Origin: Alphaproteobacteria bacterium
GTDB taxonomy: Bacteria > Pseudomonadota > Alphaproteobacteria > JAGPBS01
Assembly: GCA_018063245.1 (NCBI GenBank)
Contig: JAGPBS010000001.1
Coordinates: 8-64,007, forward strand
DNA: 64,000 bases
Reading direction: 5' to 3'
In this document: positions 4,838 to 51,944 of the stretch, piece by piece
Position numbering within the stretch: the first letter of the stretch is position 1
Layout: each line of letters begins with the position of its first letter
The notes under the pieces: generated by a model
Told to the model about the DNA's origin: nothing
What the model saw: only the letters and a program-made list of their open reading frames with translations
Database searches by the model: none
Position numbers and translations under genes: made by a program

Positions 4838-4984
4838 TACCAATCGCCATTTTAAATGATCATTAAAAAGTGCTTTTTGATATTCAAGATTCGATTTATT
4901 AAAAAAATGTTTACATTTAAATAGTTTTTGTTATATACTGACCTTAAGGGCAGTAATATGCCTTTTTTATTTTTAGAGGTGAGT

Positions 4985-5500
4985 ATGTTTCGGAGAGTTG
5001 TGAGTCTGTTAGGGCTGTTACTGGGTATTTGTGTTTTATTTGCTCCATCAAGTCTGGCGATCCTAGAAAAGAAACCAATGAAGATGGTTGACTATATTCT
5101 GGTTGAAAAAAAGAAGCGTCGTATGACACTCTTTTCGCAGAATGAAAAATTGAGAGAATATCAGATTGCCTTGGGATTTAATCCTGTTGGGCATAAGCAG
5201 AAAAAGGGTGATGGGAAAACGCCTGAGGGAATCTATACGATTGCCAAAAAGAATCCCAAAAGTGCTTTTTATCGGACACTGAAGATTTCTTATCCGAATG
5301 ATCAAGATCGAGCAAAAGCACGCAGCAAAGGTGTTTCACCTGGTGGCGATATCATGATTCATGGCCTCAAGCATGGGAGAGTTGGTAAGAAACATCTCCA
5401 GTGGGACTGGACCCATGGCTGTATGGCTCTCACTAATGAAGAAATGAGAGAGATCTATGATTCGACAAGAGTCGGGACTGTGATTGAGATTCGGCCTTAG
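4985..5500 (+). CDS. L,D-transpeptidase (YkuD domain) with signal peptide
   Basis: THGCMAL catalytic Cys motif (cf. SHGCIRL) with a conserved His upstream. Signal peptide MFRRVVSLLGLLLGICVLFAPSSLA. RBS AGAGGTGAGT precedes the ATG at 4985 (the ORF-track TTG start is at 4928). Confidence 0.8.
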   Translation: MFRRVVSLLGLLLGICVLFAPSSLAILEKKPMKMVDYILVEKKKRRMTLFSQNEKLREYQIALGFNPVGHKQKKGDGKTPEGIYTIAKKNPKSAFYRTLKISYPNDQDRAKARSKGVSPGGDIMIHGLKHGRVGKKHLQWDWTHGCMALTNEEMREIYDSTRVGTVIEIRP

Positions 5501-5533
5501 TCATTATCAAGACTTTTGAACGTTGTCATTATG

Positions 5534-5657
5534 CGTCACTCAGAGGGCTCCCACAGGAGCCCGTGGAGTCTTTGCGATATATCAAGAATAATTATTCTTA
5601 GTCATTATATTGATGAGATTCCACACCACCTCTTGGGGAGGTGGCTCTGAATGACGG
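5534..5657 (+). repeat. type-A palindromic element, copy A1
   Basis: CGTCACTCAGAGGGCTCC-N-GGAGCCCGTGGAGTCT...GAGATTCCACACCACCTCTTGGGGAGGTGGCTCTGAATGACGG, with terminal inverted repeats and three internal hairpins. Confidence 0.8.
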
Positions 5658-5674
5658 TATGGATGGTACGTGCT

Positions 5675-5782
5675 CGTCATTGCGAGCCCTTTAGGGCGTG
5701 GCAATCTACTTATTTAGTTTGATGAGATTGCCACGTCAGCTCCGTCTTCGCTCCGCTACGACGAGGCTTCCTCGCAATGACG
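5675..5782 (+). repeat. type-B palindromic element, copy B1 (adjacent to A1)
   Basis: CGTCATTGCGAGCCCTTTAGGGCGTGGCAATCT...AGATTGCCACGTCAGC...CCTCGCAATGACG, with perfect terminal inverted repeats CGTCATTGCGAG/CTCGCAATGACG. Confidence 0.8.
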
Positions 5783-5845
5783 TTCTTTTTCCTTGCCTTA
5801 TTATTGGCGTCCATATATGACGGGTGAGTGAATCGGCTATGTGAC

Positions 5846-7279
5846 CTATAAAGGTAAAGTAATCTTGACTCTAAGGCCGCCTTTAGGACTATCAGAGAGT
5901 TTGATATCGCCGCCGTGTGAGAGAATAATATCGCGTGTGATCGGAAGGCCAAGGCCGATGTTGCTATTTCTTTTTATAGAATCAGTGCTTGCAAGGCGAA
6001 CGAAGGGTTTAAAGACACTCTCTCTATCTTGTTTAGGGATGCCTGGACCATTGTCATCAATGTAAATGATGAGAAATTGAGTGAGCTTCTTTGTGCGGAG
6101 CCAGACGGTATCGCCATAGTCAAAACCGTTGTTGATGAGGTTAATGAGGGCGCGTTTGAGCGCATTCGGTTTGATTGGCATTTTAAAATCAAGATCCGGA
6201 CTCTCATCTGATGAAAAAATGAACTTGCGATGTTGACGTTTCACTTGCGAGGTCAAATCTGTTAGAAAGTTTGAGATTTTGACGGATTGATTTTCCTCTG
6301 TGCCTTCTCCTTTTGCAAAGGTGAGATAGGCATTGATCATCTCTTCCATATCGATAATGTCATGATCGATTTCAGAGACATATTTGTCGATATTCTTTTT
6401 AGAGGCTTGGCTTGATTTGATCATCTCAAGGGCAAGATTCATGCGCGTGAGGGGGGTTCTTAAATCGTGTGAAACACCAGCGAGCATTTCAGTTCGTTGC
6501 TGAATTTGCTGTGTGATTCTTTGTTTCATTTTAATGAATGCATTGGCAGCCTGCCGAACCTCAAGGGCGCCTTTGGGCCTGAAATTTTTATCATCGCGGC
6601 CTTTACCAAAATTGTCAGCCGCATTGGCAAGGCGAATAATAGGCCTGATTTGATTGCGCAAGAAGATGATTGCGATGGTGAAAAGAATGATGGATGAACC
6701 AATCATCCAGACAATGAAAATATAGGTTGTTGAGGTTGAAAGACGTCTTTTATGGATGTCAAAAATCAAAATACCATCTTTGACCTGAACGCTAATGAGC
6801 ATGTGATCTTGCTTTGATTTTGCATCAATTGCGTAGTTTGCATCGAGAGAAGATTCGAGTGCATTGCTGAGGATTTGGGTTGTGAGCGATGGGTAGGTTC
6901 TGATTTTATTTTTGAGCTTTAATTTTTTTTCATATTGCACTTTGATTTTGAAAAATTTTTCAATTTGATCGAACAGTGGTTTTGAGGATTGAGGATTTGG
7001 CAGTTTTTCAAATTCAGAGATTGTATATTCAATTTCTGTAATAAGATGTCCTGCTAATTTTTGAGTGAGTGTTTCCACATGACGAACATAGAAAACATAA
7101 GTTGAAATGAGCTGCAGTAAAATAAGTGGAACAATAATGATGAGTAGCGCTCTTTTAAAAAGAGTGCGAGGTATAAAGGCCTTTAATTTTGAGAATGGAT
7201 CATAAGGTTGGGACAAGCAGAAGGTATCCTTTGTTGCGAATTGTTTTGAGGTAGTTAGGGTGCTTTGGGTCATCGCCAA
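5846..7279 (-). CDS. EnvZ-like sensor histidine kinase (membrane, HAMP + HisKA + HATPase)
   Basis: H-box AGVSHDLRTPLTRM, two TM segments, G-box GLGLPITRDIILSHGG. It overlaps the response regulator 3' end (7200-7279), so the true start is probably downstream of 7279. Confidence 0.85.
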   Translation of the reverse strand: MAMTQSTLTTSKQFATKDTFCLSQPYDPFSKLKAFIPRTLFKRALLIIIVPLILLQLISTYVFYVRHVETLTQKLAGHLITEIEYTISEFEKLPNPQSSKPLFDQIEKFFKIKVQYEKKLKLKNKIRTYPSLTTQILSNALESSLDANYAIDAKSKQDHMLISVQVKDGILIFDIHKRRLSTSTTYIFIVWMIGSSIILFTIAIIFLRNQIRPIIRLANAADNFGKGRDDKNFRPKGALEVRQAANAFIKMKQRITQQIQQRTEMLAGVSHDLRTPLTRMNLALEMIKSSQASKKNIDKYVSEIDHDIIDMEEMINAYLTFAKGEGTEENQSVKISNFLTDLTSQVKRQHRKFIFSSDESPDLDFKMPIKPNALKRALINLINNGFDYGDTVWLRTKKLTQFLIIYIDDNGPGIPKQDRESVFKPFVRLASTDSIKRNSNIGLGLPITRDIILSHGGDIKLSDSPKGGLRVKITLPL

Positions 7280-7895
7280 TTTTTTTACGCAAACGCGTGA
7301 CTAGAATGTCAAAGGAGCGTGAGAAATAATCTGTTTGAAAAGCATTTGACAAGAGATCACGCGAGACCGGTTCTCCATTTTTCTCCCAAAGAATATGCAG
7401 AAACTTTGATTCCGTTTGGGTGAGGGGAATTTCAATCTGATCAATGAGCAGCTTTTGTTGCCCTGGGGAGAATTGCCAGAGGCCTTTTTTCAAGAAAAGA
7501 TTTGTGTGCGGTGCTTTTGTTTGATTCTGCCTTTTCAGAATCGATTTAATGCGGAGCAATAGTTCTTTCGGGTCAAATGGCTTTGCCAGATAGTCATCAG
7601 CGCCTTTCTCAAGGCCAGTGATTCTGTCTTCCGTATTGCCTCTAGCGGTCAATAGAAGGATCGGAACATCATTGTGGAATTTGTTCCGGATTTCATCTGT
7701 GAGTGAAAGACCATCTTGTCCAGGCATGGTGATATCCATAATGATGAGATCAAATCTTTGGTCTTTCAGAATTTTTTTAGCGGCATTTGCATTTTCTGCC
7801 GTTGTGACTAAGTAATCGTGATCAGAGATATAAGTGTGCAGCAGATCTCTCAATCTTTCATCATCATCAATAATTAAAATCGAAAAGTCTGACAT
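7200..7895 (-). CDS. OmpR-family response regulator
   Basis: Receiver domain MSDFSILIIDDDERL...DLIIMDITMPGQDG plus a winged-helix C-terminus. SD AAGGAAAG precedes the ATG at 7895. The ORF track extends to 7976 through a TTG. Confidence 0.85.
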   Translation of the reverse strand: MSDFSILIIDDDERLRDLLHTYISDHDYLVTTAENANAAKKILKDQRFDLIIMDITMPGQDGLSLTDEIRNKFHNDVPILLLTARGNTEDRITGLEKGADDYLAKPFDPKELLLRIKSILKRQNQTKAPHTNLFLKKGLWQFSPGQQKLLIDQIEIPLTQTESKFLHILWEKNGEPVSRDLLSNAFQTDYFSRSFDILVTRLRKKIGDDPKHPNYLKTIRNKGYLLLVPTL

Positions 7896-7909
7896 GTTGT
7901 CTTTCCTTG

Positions 7910-8599
7910 CTAAATATGATACTTCTGCTGTAATGATGCGTAGCTTTTCATCATGATAGGAAGGTAAGTTTTGCACTCGTTATATATCATATTTGCTGTA
8001 GGTTGCTTGTAAGTATGTGAGGTGAGATTGCGATTTTCCATCATTTTTAACCATACTGTTTCATCGTCGATCAATTTGAGAGCAAAGGATTGTTGAAAAG
8101 TTGCTCGAGGAGATTGAACCTCGATCCCTTCTTGATAGCAGATTTTTTTGAGCATTTTCCAATAAAGTTTAAAGCTATATTCAAAAATTTGAATTGTTGC
8201 TTCTGTTAGATAAGGGTGTTTATCTTTATCCATTTGTGAGACATCTTGAAATTTCTCAAGAGCTTCGCCTAGGTCTAAAAAGAGTTCGTACCAGTCATAA
8301 TTATTCTCAACTCTTTTAAAGAGAACAGACTTTGTTTTTTCAATGTCAGCTTTTAGGGCAGAATCTTTCAGTTGATCAAACCTGAGGCAGTCAATTTTTA
8401 AGAGAGTATCAGCAGAATCAATAATATTTCGAATATTTTGCCATTCTTCGCTTGTGGCCTTTGGACAGAGAATAGCCAAATCGATATCAGATCGTTCAAG
8501 AGATGTGTTTTTGGATCTTGAGCCAAATAACCATATTTCATTTACATAGGGAAGGCTTCGGAGACGATAATAGAATTCATATTGTTTGATAGAATGCAT
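7910..8599 (-). CDS. fused Pol-beta-type nucleotidyltransferase + HEPN/KNTase_C-like protein (MNT-HEPN or ANT-like)
   Basis: N-terminal LFGSRSKNTSLERSDIDLAIL matches the GS-x(9-10)-SDxD nucleotidyltransferase motif. The C-terminal helical region carries ENRNLTSH, an R-x4-H HEPN motif. Its start overlaps the upstream gene stop (TAATG), and its stop is 14 nt from the response-regulator RBS. Confidence 0.6.
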   Translation of the reverse strand: MHSIKQYEFYYRLRSLPYVNEIWLFGSRSKNTSLERSDIDLAILCPKATSEEWQNIRNIIDSADTLLKIDCLRFDQLKDSALKADIEKTKSVLFKRVENNYDWYELFLDLGEALEKFQDVSQMDKDKHPYLTEATIQIFEYSFKLYWKMLKKICYQEGIEVQSPRATFQQSFALKLIDDETVWLKMMENRNLTSHTYKQPTANMIYNECKTYLPIMMKSYASLQQKYHI

Positions 8600-9543
8600 T
8601 ATTTTTTCCTTTTTAGAGTTGGTGACTCTGTCATTTCTTGATCAGGGCAGACGTCAAGGAGTCGGATGCCTCTGACAGTTGTTTGATCTGGATCTTTGTA
8701 TTGTGCCAGATAATCTTCTAATAAAACATCTACAACTTGTTTAGGCTCATTTGAGGTTGCATGACGGAAACGAACTTGTCCATCATAGGCTCTGATTGTA
8801 AAACCAAGATGAGAAATCACAAGATCAGTTCCTGTGGACTCTTTCATGTTCCAATTGGGTCTGACAATCCAGAGGATTGTTCCTGTTTCGAGGAGTTTCA
8901 GTTTTTCAGGATTTTGGAGAAGATCTTGAATCGATAAGTAAGGGCAGGAAACGTTTTCACCTTTTAAACAATCGGGCATTTGATTATCATCTATCATTTT
9001 TTGAAGGAGGGCATCCCATTCTTCGCGTGAGTTAACTTTGTATTCTTTTTTGAGCTCATCAAAATGGGACTTTTCAAAAAAGCCCTTTGGGTCAGCAAAG
9101 GATTCAGCATGGTGAACTTGAATTTGCATTTGCTCTGCATAGCGTTCGGTTACGTCTTTGACAAGGCCTTTTTTGATATTTTCAGGAATCCAGCTTTGTT
9201 CAACAATATGATGACGACGTACGAAACCAACTTGCGCATCTTTATATCGAATTTGGTCCATTACACTCCGAATATTTTTCTCAGAAGCCTTGCGTGAGAA
9301 AGCAAGGACTGTCTCAACATAAGTGACACAATCAAACCCATCGTAACGGATTCTGCGGTCAGAATCATTTAATGGATTCTCAACATAAGGTTTTCCAAGA
9401 TACTGAGAGCTAAGTAATTCAATATCACTGCGTATTGAATCTGATGTTTTTTGTGTTGGCATTGAAAATAATCCTTGAATTGTTTTGTAATCGTTGTATA
9501 TTTCAGTAGGAGGCTTGGTTCTCATTTTAAATAATCTTCTCAC
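8599..9543 (-). CDS. hypothetical protein, possible papain/NlpC-P60-like cysteine hydrolase (tentative; family not identified)
   Basis: 314-aa ORF with YDGFDCVTYVETVLAF, a Cys-nucleophile-like motif. First gene of the minus-strand operon. The true start may be an internal Met (9525 or 9462). Confidence 0.4.
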   Translation of the reverse strand: MRRLFKMRTKPPTEIYNDYKTIQGLFSMPTQKTSDSIRSDIELLSSQYLGKPYVENPLNDSDRRIRYDGFDCVTYVETVLAFSRKASEKNIRSVMDQIRYKDAQVGFVRRHHIVEQSWIPENIKKGLVKDVTERYAEQMQIQVHHAESFADPKGFFEKSHFDELKKEYKVNSREEWDALLQKMIDDNQMPDCLKGENVSCPYLSIQDLLQNPEKLKLLETGTILWIVRPNWNMKESTGTDLVISHLGFTIRAYDGQVRFRHATSNEPKQVVDVLLEDYLAQYKDPDQTTVRGIRLLDVCPDQEMTESPTLKRKK

Positions 9544-9553
9544 TTAAGTATAG

Positions 9554-10558
9554 ATGATCGGGGTCATGAAAGTAAATACACCTTCAATGATTAAAATTAG
9601 ACACCTGGATGATAAAGGTGAATGTGTGCCGGGGCCGCTTCCTCAGACACGCAAAGTGAGTGGGAAAAATCATCATCATCAAAAAAGTTACGAGTGGATT
9701 CATCTGGAATCTCTGGATGAAGAAAATATTGCATGGCTTGAAGCAGAATCTAACATTCCGAAAGATATTCTGGAAAGCTTTATTACTGAGGACAGCCGGG
9801 CACGTTTAACGATATTTCCTGAAGGGATCTTTATTGTTTTAAAAGCTCTCAATTATGATCCGGGCCATGATATCGATGAAATGGCATCGATTCGTCTTTG
9901 GATTGATGATAATAAGCTGATTTCATCCCGCGTTCACAGAACAGGGACCTTTGAATACATAGAAGATAAGATTCGCCATAATAAATCGCCCAAGTCAATC
10001 GGGGAGATCATCATTATGATCGTCCAGAAGATTTATGATGAAATGGAAGAAACCATTCATGGTCTTGATGACAAGATTTATAAGATTGAGCAAAAGCTTC
10101 TTGATGATGAGGCTGATTATGAGCCTGGCGATTTTATCTCGTACCGCTTATTGAGTATTAACTTGCGTAAGAACTTGGTGCCTGAAATGTCTGTGCTGCA
10201 TGGTCTTGCGAATAGTGAGTTGACTTTTTTATCAAAGCAGCAGCGTTTGGTTCTAAAAGAACATACAGAATATTTCACTAAGCTGTTAGAGACTCTAAAT
10301 ACTTGCCGCGAGCGTTTGCACTATATCCAAGACGAGCGCGCAAATAAACTAACACAAAAAGTGAACTACAACATTTATGTGCTGTCAGTGATTACGGTTT
10401 TCTTCTTGCCACTCACCTTCTTTACAGGCCTATTAGGGATGAACTTGGCAGGTATCCCAGGAGCAGGCTCAGATAGCTCCTTTATATTCTATACCCTGAT
10501 TCTTGTTGCATTAGGCCTCGTTGAGCTATGGATATTGCGCAAAATTAAATGGGTGTAA
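9554..10558 (+). CDS. corA: CorA-family divalent cation transporter (CorA/ZntB superfamily)
   Basis: Two C-terminal TM helices with GMN signature FFTGLLGMNLAGIP, a long cytosolic N-domain and an acidic loop. The true start is probably MKVNT (9566) or MIKIRHLDD (9587), because the ORF start leaves only 10 bp between divergent genes. Confidence 0.8.
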   Translation: MIGVMKVNTPSMIKIRHLDDKGECVPGPLPQTRKVSGKNHHHQKSYEWIHLESLDEENIAWLEAESNIPKDILESFITEDSRARLTIFPEGIFIVLKALNYDPGHDIDEMASIRLWIDDNKLISSRVHRTGTFEYIEDKIRHNKSPKSIGEIIIMIVQKIYDEMEETIHGLDDKIYKIEQKLLDDEADYEPGDFISYRLLSINLRKNLVPEMSVLHGLANSELTFLSKQQRLVLKEHTEYFTKLLETLNTCRERLHYIQDERANKLTQKVNYNIYVLSVITVFFLPLTFFTGLLGMNLAGIPGAGSDSSFIFYTLILVALGLVELWILRKIKWV

Positions 10559-36248: not shown

Positions 36249-36338
36249 CGTCATTGCGAGCCCTTTAGGGCGTGGCAATCTCATTGTAATTAAGAAAGAA
36301 GATTGCCACGTCAGCCTCCGGCTTCCTCGCAATGACGG
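36249..36338 (+). repeat. type-B palindromic element, copy B2
   Basis: CGTCATTGCGAGCCCTTTAGGGCGTGGCAATCTC...AGATTGCCACGTCAGCCTCCGGCTTCCTCGCAATGACGG. Confidence 0.8.
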
Positions 36339-51856: not shown

Positions 51857-51944
51857 CGTCATCGCGAGGAGCGATAGCGACGTGGCGATCTTGTATAGTG
51901 AGATGAGATTGCCACGGCGCAACAAGGAGCGCCTCGCAATGACG
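51857..51944 (+). repeat. type-B palindromic element, divergent copy B3
   Basis: CGTCATCGCGAGGAGCGATAGCGACGTGGCGATCT...GAGATTGCCACGGCGCAACAAGGAGCGCCTCGCAATGACG. Confidence 0.7.

What the first reader, a model, noticed from the sequence alone, without database searches (positions are those of the whole stretch)
5846..9543. Four-gene operon linking a cysteine-hydrolase-like protein and a nucleotidyltransferase+HEPN fusion to an OmpR/EnvZ-type two-component system
On the minus strand the 314-aa FDCVTYVE protein (9543→8599) and the NTase-HEPN fusion (8599→7910) overlap as TAATG. The response regulator's SD follows 14 nt later, and the response regulator overlaps the sensor kinase. The NTase-HEPN fusion has GSRSKN…SDIDL and an R-x4-H motif in one polypeptide. 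It could be a fused MNT-HEPN toxin-antitoxin-like unit or an ANT/KNTase-like nucleotidylyltransferase. I have not seen such proteins described as co-operonic with an envelope-stress-type two-component system.
Basis: partly seen in the sequence, partly recalled or inferred. Interest (0 to 1): 0.5.

Follow-up and report, generated by a model that had tools for sequence, protein, structure and literature searches.

The report
Fused toxin-antitoxin gene lodged in an operon
The four tightly packed genes are real, but the odd one is a single-chain version of a known toxin-antitoxin module (a self-modifying RNase) that lodges in unrelated operons in many intracellular bacteria, and a close relative has deleted it from this exact spot, so there is no sign of a special link to the two-component sensor.

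Summary
On the minus strand there are four genes: a DUF1460/AmiA-like NlpC/P60 amidase, a 229-aa MNT(NTase)+HEPN fusion, an OmpR-family regulator and an EnvZ-like kinase. They are joined by a TAATG overlap, a 14-nt gap with an AAGGAAAG ribosome-binding site, and an RR/HK overlap.

The fusion is a single-chain form of the Legionella/HI0073-HI0074-type type VII HEPN-MNT toxin-antitoxin pair. It has GSx10DxD plus D70, R190x4H195xY197 and E140, all conserved in 34 homologs. Fused MNT-HEPN proteins ("FhepTA") were described in 2026 as self-oligoAMPylating RNases. The ANT/KNTase reading is not supported.

The implied link to the two-component system is not supported:
- None of 80 loci from other species has the amidase or the RR/HK next to a family member.
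- Homologs at 65-71% identity sit in other contexts.
- About half of family members are embedded just as tightly behind unrelated housekeeping genes.
- A syntenic close relative (L091) keeps amidase→RR→HK, with only a 20-codon scar of the fusion.

The arrangement is confined to a shallow clade, and the fusion is dispensable and mosaic (dS 1.9 against 0.32 for RR/HK).

Verdict: an ordinary new member of a known kind, and low interest.

The parts
8599..9543 (-). DUF1460/AmiA-like NlpC/P60-type amidase gene. This is the longest ORF, 314 aa. The probable true start is ATG 9462, giving 287 aa. There is no N-terminal hydrophobic signal, so it is probably cytoplasmic.
   Evidence: Pfam PF07313 E 1.1e-30. 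PDB 2IM9 (Legionella DUF1460) E 5e-30, with the FDC..(Cys) and SHLGF (His) stretches aligned; B. uniformis AmiA 4H4J E 1e-6. The 287-aa start is used by gene callers and relatives.
7910..8599 (-). Single-chain MNT-HEPN (type VII toxin-antitoxin-like) gene, 229 aa. The MNT domain is about residues 1-100 (8599-8300). The HEPN domain is about residues 104-229 (8290-7913).
   Evidence: Pfam Polbeta 1.6e-11, NTP_transf_2 3e-8, NTase_sub_bind 2e-26. NCBIfam HI0074 4e-25, above its cutoff. AF2 pLDDT 93.7. Foldseek: TTHA0048 TMt 0.92, L. pneumophila HEPN toxin 0.85, MNT antitoxin 0.75.
8480..8524 (-). NTase catalytic motif G26-S27-x10-D38-x-D40. The third carboxylate, D70, is at 8392-8390.
   Evidence: Invariant in 34 homologs. 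The same GSX10DXD motif is required for AMPylation in L. pneumophila MNT (PMC11586414) and in FhepTA (PMC13000451).
8009..8032 (-). HEPN motif R190-x4-H195-x-Y197 (RX4HXY). Y197 is the predicted AMP acceptor.
   Evidence: N191 and Y197 are invariant; R190 and H195 are at least 90% conserved. The motif and its acceptor Tyr are described in PMC11586414 and PMC13000451.
8180..8191 (-). Q137-x-x-E140, equivalent to the Mg2+-site residues Q44/E47 of the L. pneumophila HEPN toxin.
   Evidence: Mapped by hand through the HMMER profile alignment to 8XDJ. E140 is invariant in A1. Q44/E47 are the catalytic site in PMC11586414.
7896..7909 (-). 14-nt spacer between the fusion stop and the RR start. It holds the AAGGAAAG Shine-Dalgarno sequence.
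   Evidence: Read directly from the sequence.
7200..7895 (-). OmpR-family response regulator, 231 aa.
   Evidence: Pfam Response_reg 1.7e-31 and Trans_reg_C 4.6e-15. The best NCBIfam match is OmpR at 196 bits, below its 331-bit equivalog cutoff.
5846..7279 (-). EnvZ-like sensor histidine kinase with two hydrophobic segments, HAMP, HisKA and HATPase_c. The start is TTG 7216 (456 aa) or ATG 7273/TTG 7279. Either way it overlaps the RR 3' end.
   Evidence: Pfam. NCBIfam EnvZ 226 bits, below its 415-bit cutoff. Gene calls in public contigs.
5676..5781 (.). Palindromic repeat element of about 106 nt between the convergent kinase and YkuD genes. It is a possible bidirectional terminator and marks the end of the cluster.
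   Evidence: Arms GTCATTGCGAG at 5676 (+) and 5781 (-), with further copies at 36250-36336 and 51858-51943: 7 matches against 1.2 expected. Fold -63 kcal/mol, z -4.9.

Best explanation
The cluster is a clade-specific juxtaposition, not a dedicated four-component system.

The 229-aa protein is a single-chain version of the HI0073/HI0074-type (Legionella-type) HEPN-MNT type VII toxin-antitoxin pair. By inference from the characterised two-gene system and from fused FhepTA, it works as follows. The N-terminal MNT domain uses ATP/Mg2+ to oligo-AMPylate Tyr197, next to the R-x4-H loop of the C-terminal HEPN RNase domain. This happens in the same or a partner chain. The covalently attached MNT domain probably also hinders HEPN dimerisation. 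Together these keep the RNase off. Loss of AMPylation through low ATP, removal of AMP, or proteolysis of the MNT part would free an RNase that arrests growth.

This gene has no conserved partners. It habitually lodges, translationally coupled, inside whatever host operon it lands in. In the ancestor of a shallow alphaproteobacterial clade it sat between a cytoplasmic DUF1460 amidase gene and an OmpR/EnvZ-type two-component pair. The amidase probably recycles anhydro-muropeptides.

Shown here: domain identity, motif conservation, purifying selection, lack of conserved neighbours, and loss by deletion in a sister lineage. Inferred: RNase toxicity, self-AMPylation, co-transcription.
For: Domain identity:
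- Pfam and NCBIfam hits.
- PDB profile hits to TTHA0048 (1e-28), L. pneumophila HEPN toxin 8XDJ (3.5e-21), HI0074, HI0073, and the MNT antitoxins 8XEH_E and 5YEP.
- High-confidence AF2 model. Its two domains superpose on the HEPN toxin and MNT antitoxin structures.

Active sites:
- G26, S27, D38, D40, D70, E140, N191 and Y197 are invariant in 34 homologs; R190 and H195 are at least 90% conserved.
- dN/dS is 0.03-0.07.

Mechanistic precedent:
- PMC11586414: Y105 poly-AMPylation, GSX10DXD, Q44/E47.
- PMC13000451: fused FhepTA self-tri-AMPylates its Tyr, and its MNT domain blocks HEPN dimerisation.

No functional link to the neighbours:
- 0 of 80 loci from other species have an AmiA-like gene or the RR/HK adjacent.
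- Unbiased neighbour clustering finds no recurrent partner.
- Homologs at 65-71% identity are next to an ABC transporter and an ankyrin gene, amgK/murU-like genes, rpmE, and others.
- 40 of 78 family loci lie within 60 nt behind a same-strand gene, and 18 are coupled on both sides.
- Fused and split forms occupy the same queA-zapE slot in Rickettsia.
- Homologs occur on plasmids, and several MAGs carry 3-4 copies.

Dispensability:
- L091/L092 are fully syntenic (CorA 98%, RR 98%, HK 94%). They retain only a 20-codon scar, MNRTAHIHSNHYSLKQKYHL*, which keeps the TAATG start and the C-terminal ...QKYH(I/L)* codons.

Separate history:
- Between the window and L090, nucleotide identity jumps from about 0.80 to about 0.94 at the fusion/RR junction.
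- dS is 1.9 for the fusion against 0.32 for RR/HK.
Against: - Within the shallow clade the amidase-TAATG-fusion junction is kept in at least the window lineage and L103, and fusion-RR-HK is kept in L090. Some local benefit of the placement cannot be excluded.
- No transcript data exist, so co-transcription is inferred from spacing only.
- RNase activity, toxicity and AMPylation are untested for this protein.
- In the L. pneumophila homolog the R and H of RX4H were not needed for activity, so the catalytic mechanism in this subfamily is itself unsettled.
- The FhepTA redox switch uses two HEPN cysteines. The window protein's HEPN cysteines are not conserved across the 34 aligned homologs.
- No integrase or other mobile-element gene flanks the gene here.
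Confidence: 0.72

Rival explanations
1. One reading: a dedicated four-gene system in which the NTase-HEPN protein and the amidase act with the OmpR/EnvZ-type pair. For example, envelope or muropeptide signals would control the RNase, or the NTase would modify a signalling component.
For: - Same strand, with a TAATG overlap, a 14-nt SD-containing gap and an RR/HK overlap.
- No terminator-like site at the junctions.
- The layout is retained in several lineages of a shallow clade.
- The neighbours are envelope-related: a DUF1460 amidase and a convergent YkuD L,D-transpeptidase.
Against: - The arrangement is absent from all 80 loci of other species and from homologs at 65-71% identity.
- AmiA-like homologs at 44% and 35% identity, and RR/HK relatives at 37-44%, lack the partners.
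- L091/L092 deleted the fusion and kept the rest intact.
- Tight coupling to unrelated neighbours is the rule in this family.
- The fusion has a different divergence history from the RR/HK beside it.
Confidence: 0.08
2. A KNTase/ANT-like two-domain nucleotidyltransferase. The helical C-terminal domain would bind a small-molecule substrate (an antibiotic or a cell-wall metabolite) and would not be an RNase.
For: - The domain order, NTase then helical bundle, is the same as in KNTase/ANT.
- Pfam names the C-terminal domain 'NTase substrate binding'.
- HI0073/HI0074 was first interpreted this way (PDB titles of 1JOG and 1NO5).
- PMC3710099 notes that HEPN domains fused to MNT are typically inactive.
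Against: - There is no Pfam hit to a KNTase_C or aminoglycoside-NT C-terminal family.
- ANT, AAD and KNTase structures match only at TM 0.22-0.29, rmsd 15-17 Å and 8-13% identity. TA toxin and antitoxin structures match each domain at TMt 0.75-0.92.
- RX4HXY and the Mg-site Glu are conserved under purifying selection. That would not be expected for an inactive substrate-binding module.
Confidence: 0.07
3. A domesticated housekeeping regulator of intracellular bacteria. The single-chain MNT-HEPN would be an ATP-sensing RNase kept for host benefit, such as growth arrest under energy stress, rather than a selfish or defence module. Its operon placement would simply supply constitutive expression.
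For: - The family is concentrated in Rickettsiales, Holosporales-like alphaproteobacteria, Legionellales and Chlamydiae among the loci returned.
- It is stably syntenic within sub-lineages: after gyrB in 6 loci, and in queA-zapE in Rickettsia.
- There is strong purifying selection.
- It is embedded in housekeeping operons.
Against: - Multi-copy genomes, plasmid copies and patchy distribution.
- Clean loss in L091.
- Mosaic divergence suggesting allele exchange.
- Fused/split flips and frameshifted copies.
- All of these are typical of TA-like selfish modules. No enrichment statistic was computed.
Confidence: 0.13

Closest known systems
Legionella pneumophila HEPN-MNT type VII toxin-antitoxin pair (PDB 8XDJ, 8XEH, 8XEO, 8YUF; PMC11586414), with the older structural-genomics members HI0073/HI0074 and TTHA0048
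   Same: - Same Pfam and NCBIfam families: PF08780/TIGR01987 for HEPN, and Polbeta/MNT.
- GSX10DXD, RX4HXY, and a Glu equivalent to E47.
- Each domain superposes: TMt 0.85 for HEPN, 0.75 for MNT, 0.92 for TTHA0048.
- The order, MNT then HEPN, is the same as the gene order of the pair.
   Different: - One polypeptide instead of two genes.
- About 24-25% identity to the Legionella proteins.
- No experimental data for this protein.
- Embedded in a host operon rather than standing alone.
FhepTA (SO_1440), the fused MNT-HEPN of a Shewanella oneidensis prophage (PMC13000451, NAR 2026)
   Same: - Single chain with an N-terminal MNT, a short linker and a C-terminal HEPN.
- Conserved NTase motif and R-x4-H-x-Y.
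- Closely related fused and split forms coexist. Here that is seen at the Rickettsia queA-zapE site.
   Different: - FhepTA is 276 aa, is related (28-34% identity) to the Shewanella MntA/HepT pair, and is carried on a prophage.
- The window protein is 229 aa, belongs to the HI0074/PF08780 subfamily, and is chromosomal among housekeeping genes.
- The two HEPN cysteines of the FhepTA redox switch have no family-wide conserved counterparts in the aligned homologs. Instead C45 and C71 in the MNT domain are nearly invariant.
- Direct sequence comparison with SO_1440 was not done.
Shewanella/Aphanizomenon HepT-MntA (DUF86-type type VII TA; PDB 5YEP, 7AE2)
   Same: MNT antitoxin fold and HEPN four-helix toxin fold. 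The neutralisation logic is oligo-AMPylation of the Tyr after R-x4-H.
   Different: A different HEPN subfamily: the NCBIfam HepT_toxin hit is only E 0.009, 15.9 bits against a cutoff of 60. The MntA equivalog scores 40 bits against a cutoff of 60. These systems have two genes.
Kanamycin/aminoglycoside nucleotidyltransferases (KNTase, ANT(4'), AAD(9))
   Same: An NTase domain followed by a helical, HEPN-derived domain in one chain.
   Different: - Whole-chain TM is 0.22-0.29 with 8-13% identity.
- ANTs lack the RNase-type motif, which is conserved here.
- There is no resistance-gene context.
DUF1460 / AmiA (Bacteroides uniformis; Legionella lpg0564, PDB 2IM9): the first gene of the cluster
   Same: Pfam PF07313. 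The Cys- and His-containing stretches are aligned. It is an NlpC/P60-type N-acetylmuramoyl-L-alanine amidase family acting on GlcNAc-1,6-anhydro-MurNAc-peptides (PMC4600125, citing Xu et al. 2014).
   Different: 31% or lower identity to most homologs found outside its own clade. No signal peptide, so it probably acts in the cytoplasm like AmpD. The substrate is untested.

Membership tests
Type VII HEPN-MNT (HepT/MntA) toxin-antitoxin, HI0073/HI0074 subfamily | MNT (pol-beta-type) nucleotidyltransferase with GSX10DXD and a third carboxylate | tested here: met
   G26 S27 x10 D38 x D40 and D70 are invariant in 34 homologs. Pfam Polbeta and NTP_transf_2 score above their cutoffs. Foldseek to 8XEO and 1NO5.
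Type VII HEPN-MNT (HepT/MntA) toxin-antitoxin, HI0073/HI0074 subfamily | HEPN domain with RX4HXY, including the acceptor Tyr | tested here: met
   R190-N-L-T-S-H195-T-Y197. N191 and Y197 are invariant; R190 and H195 are at least 90% conserved. TIGR01987 scores 88 bits against a cutoff of 55.8.
Type VII HEPN-MNT (HepT/MntA) toxin-antitoxin, HI0073/HI0074 subfamily | Mg2+-site residues of the L. pneumophila HEPN toxin (Q44/E47) | tested here: met
   Q137 and E140 align to Q44 and E47 through the 8XDJ profile alignment. E140 is invariant. Q137 is replaced by K or H in some homologs.
Type VII HEPN-MNT (HepT/MntA) toxin-antitoxin, HI0073/HI0074 subfamily | Two adjacent genes, MNT upstream of HEPN | tested here: not met
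   There is one 229-aa ORF with no internal stop. Related loci L058-L086 carry the split two-gene form, for example L070 with 100 aa and 137 aa.
Type VII HEPN-MNT (HepT/MntA) toxin-antitoxin, HI0073/HI0074 subfamily | HEPN is a growth-arresting RNase neutralised by MNT-catalysed oligo-AMPylation | not testable with these tools
   This needs toxicity assays, RNase assays and intact-mass MS. It is known only for homologs (PMC11586414, PMC13000451).
FhepTA (fused MNT-HEPN) | Single polypeptide: N-terminal MNT, short linker, C-terminal HEPN, both motifs intact | tested here: met
   The AF2 secondary structure shows alternating strands and helices to residue 95 and a helical bundle from residue 104.
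FhepTA (fused MNT-HEPN) | Two HEPN-domain cysteines forming a redox switch | tested here: inconclusive
   The window protein has C154 and C208 in its HEPN domain. Across the 34 aligned homologs these positions are not listed among the invariant or nearly invariant columns, and the consensus shows other residues there. Nearly invariant cysteines are C45 and C71, both in the MNT domain. The cysteine positions in FhepTA itself were not looked up, so equivalence could not be judged.
FhepTA (fused MNT-HEPN) | Carried on prophages or mobile islands | tested here: not met
   Here the gene lies between an amidase gene and a two-component pair, in a syntenic housekeeping region. Relatives do occur on plasmids.
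FhepTA (fused MNT-HEPN) | Direct sequence homology to SO_1440 | not tested
The paper reports that its halves are 28-34% identical to the Shewanella MntA/HepT pair. The window protein's HEPN domain matches the NCBIfam HepT_toxin model only weakly (E 0.009) and belongs to HI0074/PF08780.
Aminoglycoside/kanamycin nucleotidyltransferase (ANT/KNTase) | Sequence or structural match to the ANT NTase plus its C-terminal substrate-binding domain | tested here: not met
   There is no Pfam hit to an ANT or KNTase C-terminal family. Foldseek TM is 0.22-0.29 with rmsd 15-17 Å to 1KNY, 6UN8, 6XZ0 and 7UY4.
OmpR/EnvZ two-component system | Receiver plus winged-helix RR, and an HK with two TM segments, HAMP, HisKA and HATPase_c; orthology to E. 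coli OmpR/EnvZ | tested here: inconclusive
   The domain architecture is met. The best NCBIfam models are OmpR and EnvZ, but both score below the equivalog cutoffs: 196 against 331 bits, and 226 against 415 bits. The pair belongs to the family; orthology is unproven.
DUF1460 / AmiA-like NlpC/P60 amidase | PF07313 match with the catalytic Cys and His stretches | tested here: met
   107 bits against a cutoff of 27. The alignment to 2IM9 conserves DGFDC and ISHLGF. Activity is untested.
Operon (single transcription unit of four genes) | Same strand, short or overlapping junctions, no internal terminator; one transcript | tested here: inconclusive
   The geometry is met and there are no junction terminators. 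A weak promoter-like site (9 of 12 matches) at 8013-7986 lies inside the fusion's 3' end. No RNA data are available.

The most novel reading that the evidence does not exclude
In this shallow alphaproteobacterial clade, the self-AMPylating MNT-HEPN RNase has been captured into the transcription unit of an envelope-sensing OmpR/EnvZ-type system and a muropeptide amidase. Envelope or peptidoglycan-turnover signals, through autoregulation of the operon, would then set the dose of an ATP-gated RNase, coupling cell-wall stress to translational arrest. More broadly, single-chain HI0074-type MNT-HEPN genes would be domesticated, promoter-less ATP sensors that intracellular bacteria plug into different housekeeping operons.
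Probability: 0.07. Interest if true: 0.5.

Novelty: new member of a known kind. Interest (0 to 1): 0.15.

Why it matters
It matters little for the original claim. The apparent link between a toxin-antitoxin-like enzyme and an envelope two-component system comes from where a promiscuous single-gene module happened to lodge.

Three by-products are modestly useful:
1. The fused architecture recently characterised in Shewanella (FhepTA) also exists in the HI0073/HI0074 (Legionella-type) subfamily. That form is common in Rickettsiales, Holosporales-like alphaproteobacteria, Legionellales and Chlamydiae.
2. These genes are usually inserted promoter-less and translationally coupled into housekeeping operons. 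This warns against guilt-by-association annotation.
3. The presence/absence pair (the window against L091) is a clean natural deletion. It could be used to ask what the module does in an uncultured symbiont lineage.

Tried and rejected
- Rfam scan of the whole window at gathering thresholds: no hits, so no riboswitch or leader explains the cluster.
- PADLOC: only weak PDC-S09 hits to the MNT half and none to the amidase, so there is no known defence-system assignment.
- Promoter and terminator pattern scans: not above shuffled expectation, so they neither prove nor disprove an operon.
- Search for a conserved partner by tblastn of all six local proteins against 80+ loci and by all-against-all clustering of 503 neighbouring ORFs. 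The largest cluster was ABC-transporter-like proteins in 12 loci at varied distances and orientations. This was rejected as a specific partner.
- A peptidoglycan-recycling theme. One homolog, P0005, overlaps an APH+NTP_transferase (amgK/murU-like) pair. No AmiA-like gene and no recurrent cell-wall gene appears in the 80 loci, so this is treated as coincidence.
- Metagenome scan with the kinase: only 6 loci, the closest at 37-42% identity. None has the amidase or the fusion upstream.
- The ANT/KNTase reading was rejected on structure and motifs.
- Insertion rather than deletion as the explanation for L091. This was rejected because the 77-nt spacer keeps both the TAATG start and the last ~9 codons of the fusion gene.
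- Second copies in the window: none found.

Full report
**1. What is in the sequence**

On the minus strand there are four consecutive ORFs.
- An ORF at 9543->8599 (314 aa as the longest ORF).
- A 229-aa ORF at 8599->7910.
- A response regulator whose real start is ATG 7895 (231 aa), ending at 7200.
- A histidine kinase ending at 5846, with possible starts at TTG 7279, ATG 7273 or TTG 7216.

- The first stop TAA (8601-8599) shares a base with the next ATG, giving TAATG.
- The second gene's TAG (7912-7910) is followed by 14 nt containing AAGGAAAG, then the RR ATG.
- The RR TGA (7202-7200) lies inside the kinase ORF.

A CorA-type transporter gene diverges upstream (9554-10558, +). A YkuD L,D-transpeptidase gene converges downstream (4928-5500, +). 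Simple promoter and terminator scans are not above shuffled expectation and place no terminator-like site at a junction. The first gene most likely starts at ATG 9462 (287 aa), as in public gene calls and close relatives. The GTG-7976 extension of the RR in the ORF list is an artefact of ORF listing.

**2. What the four proteins are**

- Protein 1 matches Pfam PF07313 (AmiA-like, formerly DUF1460) at E 1e-30. It matches the Legionella DUF1460 structure 2IM9 at 5e-30, with the Cys- and His-bearing stretches aligned. The family is an NlpC/P60-type N-acetylmuramoyl-L-alanine amidase specific for GlcNAc-1,6-anhydro-MurNAc-peptides (PMC4600125, citing Xu et al. 2014). The protein has no signal peptide, so a cytoplasmic AmpD-like recycling role is the reasonable inference.
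- Proteins 3 and 4 have the OmpR-family and EnvZ-like architectures. They score below NCBIfam's equivalog cutoffs.
- Protein 2 combines a pol-beta-type minimal nucleotidyltransferase (Polbeta 1.6e-11) with PF08780/TIGR01987, the HI0074-type HEPN (2e-26 and 4e-25, above cutoffs).

**3. The fusion protein in detail**

A database search returned more than 120 clusters of similar proteins, nearly all about 229 aa and carrying both domains. In an alignment of 34 of them (39-87% identical to the window protein), G26, S27, R28, D38, D40 and D70 are invariant. These make up GSx10DxD plus the third carboxylate. E140, N191 and Y197 are also invariant, and R190 and H195 are at least 90% conserved, giving R-x4-H-x-Y.

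A profile search of the PDB hits:
- TTHA0048 (1e-28);
- the L. pneumophila HEPN toxin 8XDJ (3.5e-21);
- HI0074;
- for the N-terminal half, HI0073, the L. pneumophila MNT antitoxin and Shewanella MntA.

The AlphaFold model is confident (pLDDT 93.7). Its C-terminal domain superposes on TTHA0048 (TMt 0.92) and the Legionella HEPN toxin (0.85). Its N-terminal domain superposes on the Legionella MNT antitoxin (0.75). ANT, AAD and KNTase chains match only at TM 0.22-0.29 with rmsd 15-17 Å. The KNTase-like alternative is therefore not supported.

**4. What is known about this kind of protein**

In L. pneumophila, MNT poly-AMPylates Tyr105 of the RX4HXY loop of the HEPN toxin using its GSX10DXD motif and Mg2+. 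RNase activity depends on a Mg2+ site formed by Q44 and E47 (PMC11586414). Through the 8XDJ profile alignment, these map by hand onto Y197, Q137 and E140 of the window protein.

The occasional fusion of PF08780/DUF86 HEPN to MNT was noted in 2013 (PMC3710099). A 2026 paper characterised fused MNT-HEPN proteins (FhepTA, SO_1440) in Shewanella (PMC13000451):
- the MNT domain self-tri-AMPylates the Tyr after R-x4-H;
- the MNT domain blocks HEPN dimerisation;
- two HEPN cysteines add a redox switch;
- fused and split forms are more than 90% similar.

The window protein is therefore a new member of a described architecture, in the HI0073/HI0074 subfamily. The most likely mechanism is inferred, not shown: an ATP-dependent, self-AMPylating, auto-inhibited RNase. 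The HEPN cysteines of the window protein are not conserved across the 34 aligned homologs, whereas C45 and C71 in the MNT domain are nearly invariant.

**5. Is the four-gene arrangement meaningful?**

This was the crux, and four lines of evidence say no.

(a) A scan of one genome per species found 391 stretches encoding relatives. Among the best 80 loci, tblastn with the window's amidase, RR, HK, CorA and YkuD found none with the amidase or the RR/HK beside the family member. Only two loci (L084, L085) have an RR/HK pair, 3-5 kb away on the opposite strand; three others have a lone weak RR or HK hit.

(b) Clustering of 503 neighbouring ORFs found no recurrent partner. The neighbours are housekeeping genes that differ by lineage: gyrB upstream in six loci, queA/zapE in Rickettsia, ileS/valS-like, hbd-like, ABC transporters. 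Homologs at 65-71% identity lie in other contexts:
- between an ABC transporter gene and an ankyrin gene;
- overlapping an amgK/murU-like pair beside lptD-surA-pdxA;
- after rpmE;
- next to an opposite-strand gene.

(c) Tight embedding is the family habit. Of 78 loci, 40 lie within 60 nt behind a same-strand gene, 26 lie within 60 nt ahead of one, and 18 do both. In Rickettsia asembonensis the split pair is joined queA-ATGA-MNT, then HEPN-ATGA-zapE. A fused form occupies the same slot in another Rickettsia. The TAATG overlap and the 14-nt gap therefore carry no specific information.

(d) A close relative, L091, shares identical synteny from the MFS transporter gene to the methyltransferase gene. 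Its CorA and RR are 98% identical, its HK 94% and its amidase 85%. It has amidase->RR->HK with only 77 nt in between. That spacer holds a 20-codon ORF, MNRTAHIHSNHYSLKQKYHL*. This ORF keeps the TAATG start and the last codons of the fusion gene...SLQQKYHI* in the window and ...LLQQKYHL* in L090. This is the scar of an internal deletion, so the fusion is dispensable for the neighbours.

Conversely, amidase homologs at 44% and 35% identity, and RR/HK relatives at 37-44%, are not linked to each other or to a fusion.

**6. Extent and history of the arrangement**

- Contigs with the identical fusion protein share the layout.
- L090 (fusion 87%, RR 99%, HK 97%) keeps fusion->RR->HK.
- L103 (amidase 83%, fusion 83%) keeps amidase-TAATG-fusion.

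The arrangement is thus ancestral to a shallow clade of uncultured Alphaproteobacteria (names), and it was lost once.

The fusion is under purifying selection (dN/dS 0.03-0.07) but has a different history from its neighbours. Between the window and L090, dS is 1.9 for the fusion against 0.32 for RR and HK. Nucleotide identity steps from about 0.80 to about 0.94 exactly at the fusion/RR junction. The amidase is similarly diverged against L103 (dS 1.4). This mosaic pattern fits recombinational exchange of alleles. So do the plasmid-borne relatives and the genomes with 3-4 copies. All of this is typical of toxin-antitoxin-like modules.

**7. Verdict**

The KNTase alternative and the suggestion of a functional tie to an envelope two-component system are not supported. 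Within that clade, a natural deletion shows dispensability.

Co-transcription in this organism remains plausible but untested, and if true it is most simply explained as hitch-hiking. The fused protein is a new member of a kind already described. Interest is low.

The residual novel possibility is that the clade has wired an ATP-gated RNase to envelope signalling, or that these single-chain modules are domesticated sensors in intracellular bacteria. I put it at roughly 7%.

Noticed in passing
window 5676-5781; also 36250-36336 and 51858-51943 (partial match at 17573-17583): A palindromic repeat element of about 80-106 nt, with arms GTCATTGCGAG...CTCGCAATGAC and an inner GTGGCAATCT...AGATTGCCAC hairpin. 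There are 7 arm matches against 1.2 expected. The copy after the kinase folds at -63 kcal/mol (z -4.9) and sits between convergent genes, so it could be a REP/MITE-like element acting as a bidirectional terminator. This region aligns poorly with the relative L091.
   Followed up: partly
window 7900-8660 against L090; window 8602-9462 against L103: Mosaic divergence. Between the window and L090, the fusion gene shows about 80% nucleotide identity and dS 1.9. The adjoining RR/HK show about 94% and dS 0.32, with the step exactly at the fusion/RR junction. The amidase is likewise diverged (dS 1.4 against L103). This suggests recombinational allele exchange at the 5' half of the cluster.
   Followed up: partly
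L091 8864-8941 (and L092 2319-2378): A 20-codon scar ORF, MNRTAHIHSNHYSLKQKYHL*, left by deletion of the MNT-HEPN gene. It still overlaps the amidase stop as TAATG. It is a clean natural knockout in a syntenic relative.
   Followed up: yes
JGI contig of P0005 (no DNA held), genes at 5301-7616: A 67%-identical fusion homolog overlaps by 14 nt the end of an APH-family kinase plus NTP_transferase pair. That pair looks like AmgK/MurU (MurNAc recycling) and lies beside lptD-surA-pdxA. This is a second, independent adjacency to a peptidoglycan-recycling gene. No such trend appears in the 80 other loci, so it is probably coincidence.
   Followed up: partly
L070 5916-8750 (Rickettsia asembonensis); L021, L054, L063 at the same site: In Rickettsia the module sits between queA and a zapE/AFG1-like ATPase gene, with ATGA-type overlaps on both sides. 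It is split (100 aa + 137 aa, overlapping reading frames) in some genomes and fused in others. This looks like fused/split interconversion by frameshift at one locus.
   Followed up: partly
alignment A1, residues C45 and C71 of the window fusion (window 8467-8465 and 8389-8387): Two nearly invariant cysteines lie in the MNT domain: LAILCP just after the DxD strand, and KIDC next to the third carboxylate D70. They are unlike the HEPN-domain cysteine pair of FhepTA. They could form a disulfide or bind a metal near the NTase active site.
   Followed up: no
loci L015, L033, L037, L053 (MAG CANGTV01); L013, L017, L035 (MAG CAZSAH01): Single MAGs carry three or four diverged copies of the fused gene in different housekeeping contexts. 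The returned loci are dominated by intracellular lineages: Rickettsiales, Ca. Finniella, Midichloriaceae, Legionellales, Chlamydiae and Francisellaceae. No enrichment statistic was computed.
   Followed up: no
L011 8322-9019, L045 3801-4606, L084 and L086 downstream regions: Additional, unrelated two-gene MNT + HEPN pairs (GSRVDD..GGDIDL and ..RKTRNTLAHEY types) lie within 1 kb of the fused gene in several loci. They form small TA clusters.
   Followed up: no
window 9462-9543 and 9554: The longest-ORF start of the amidase (GTG 9543) leaves only 10 nt to the divergent CorA start. The N-terminal 27 codons are not in frame with the body in L091, so the real start is probably ATG 9462. That leaves a 91-nt divergent promoter region. 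A weak promoter-like site (TTTACT-18-TATACT) lies at 9576-9547.
   Followed up: partly
L091 11141-12347 against window 4928-5500: The relative L091 has two tandem YkuD L,D-transpeptidase genes, the second 54% identical to the window's, where the window has one.
   Followed up: no
window 1-64000: No Rfam family reached its gathering score anywhere in the 64 kb: no tRNA, rRNA, riboswitch or leader.
   Followed up: no
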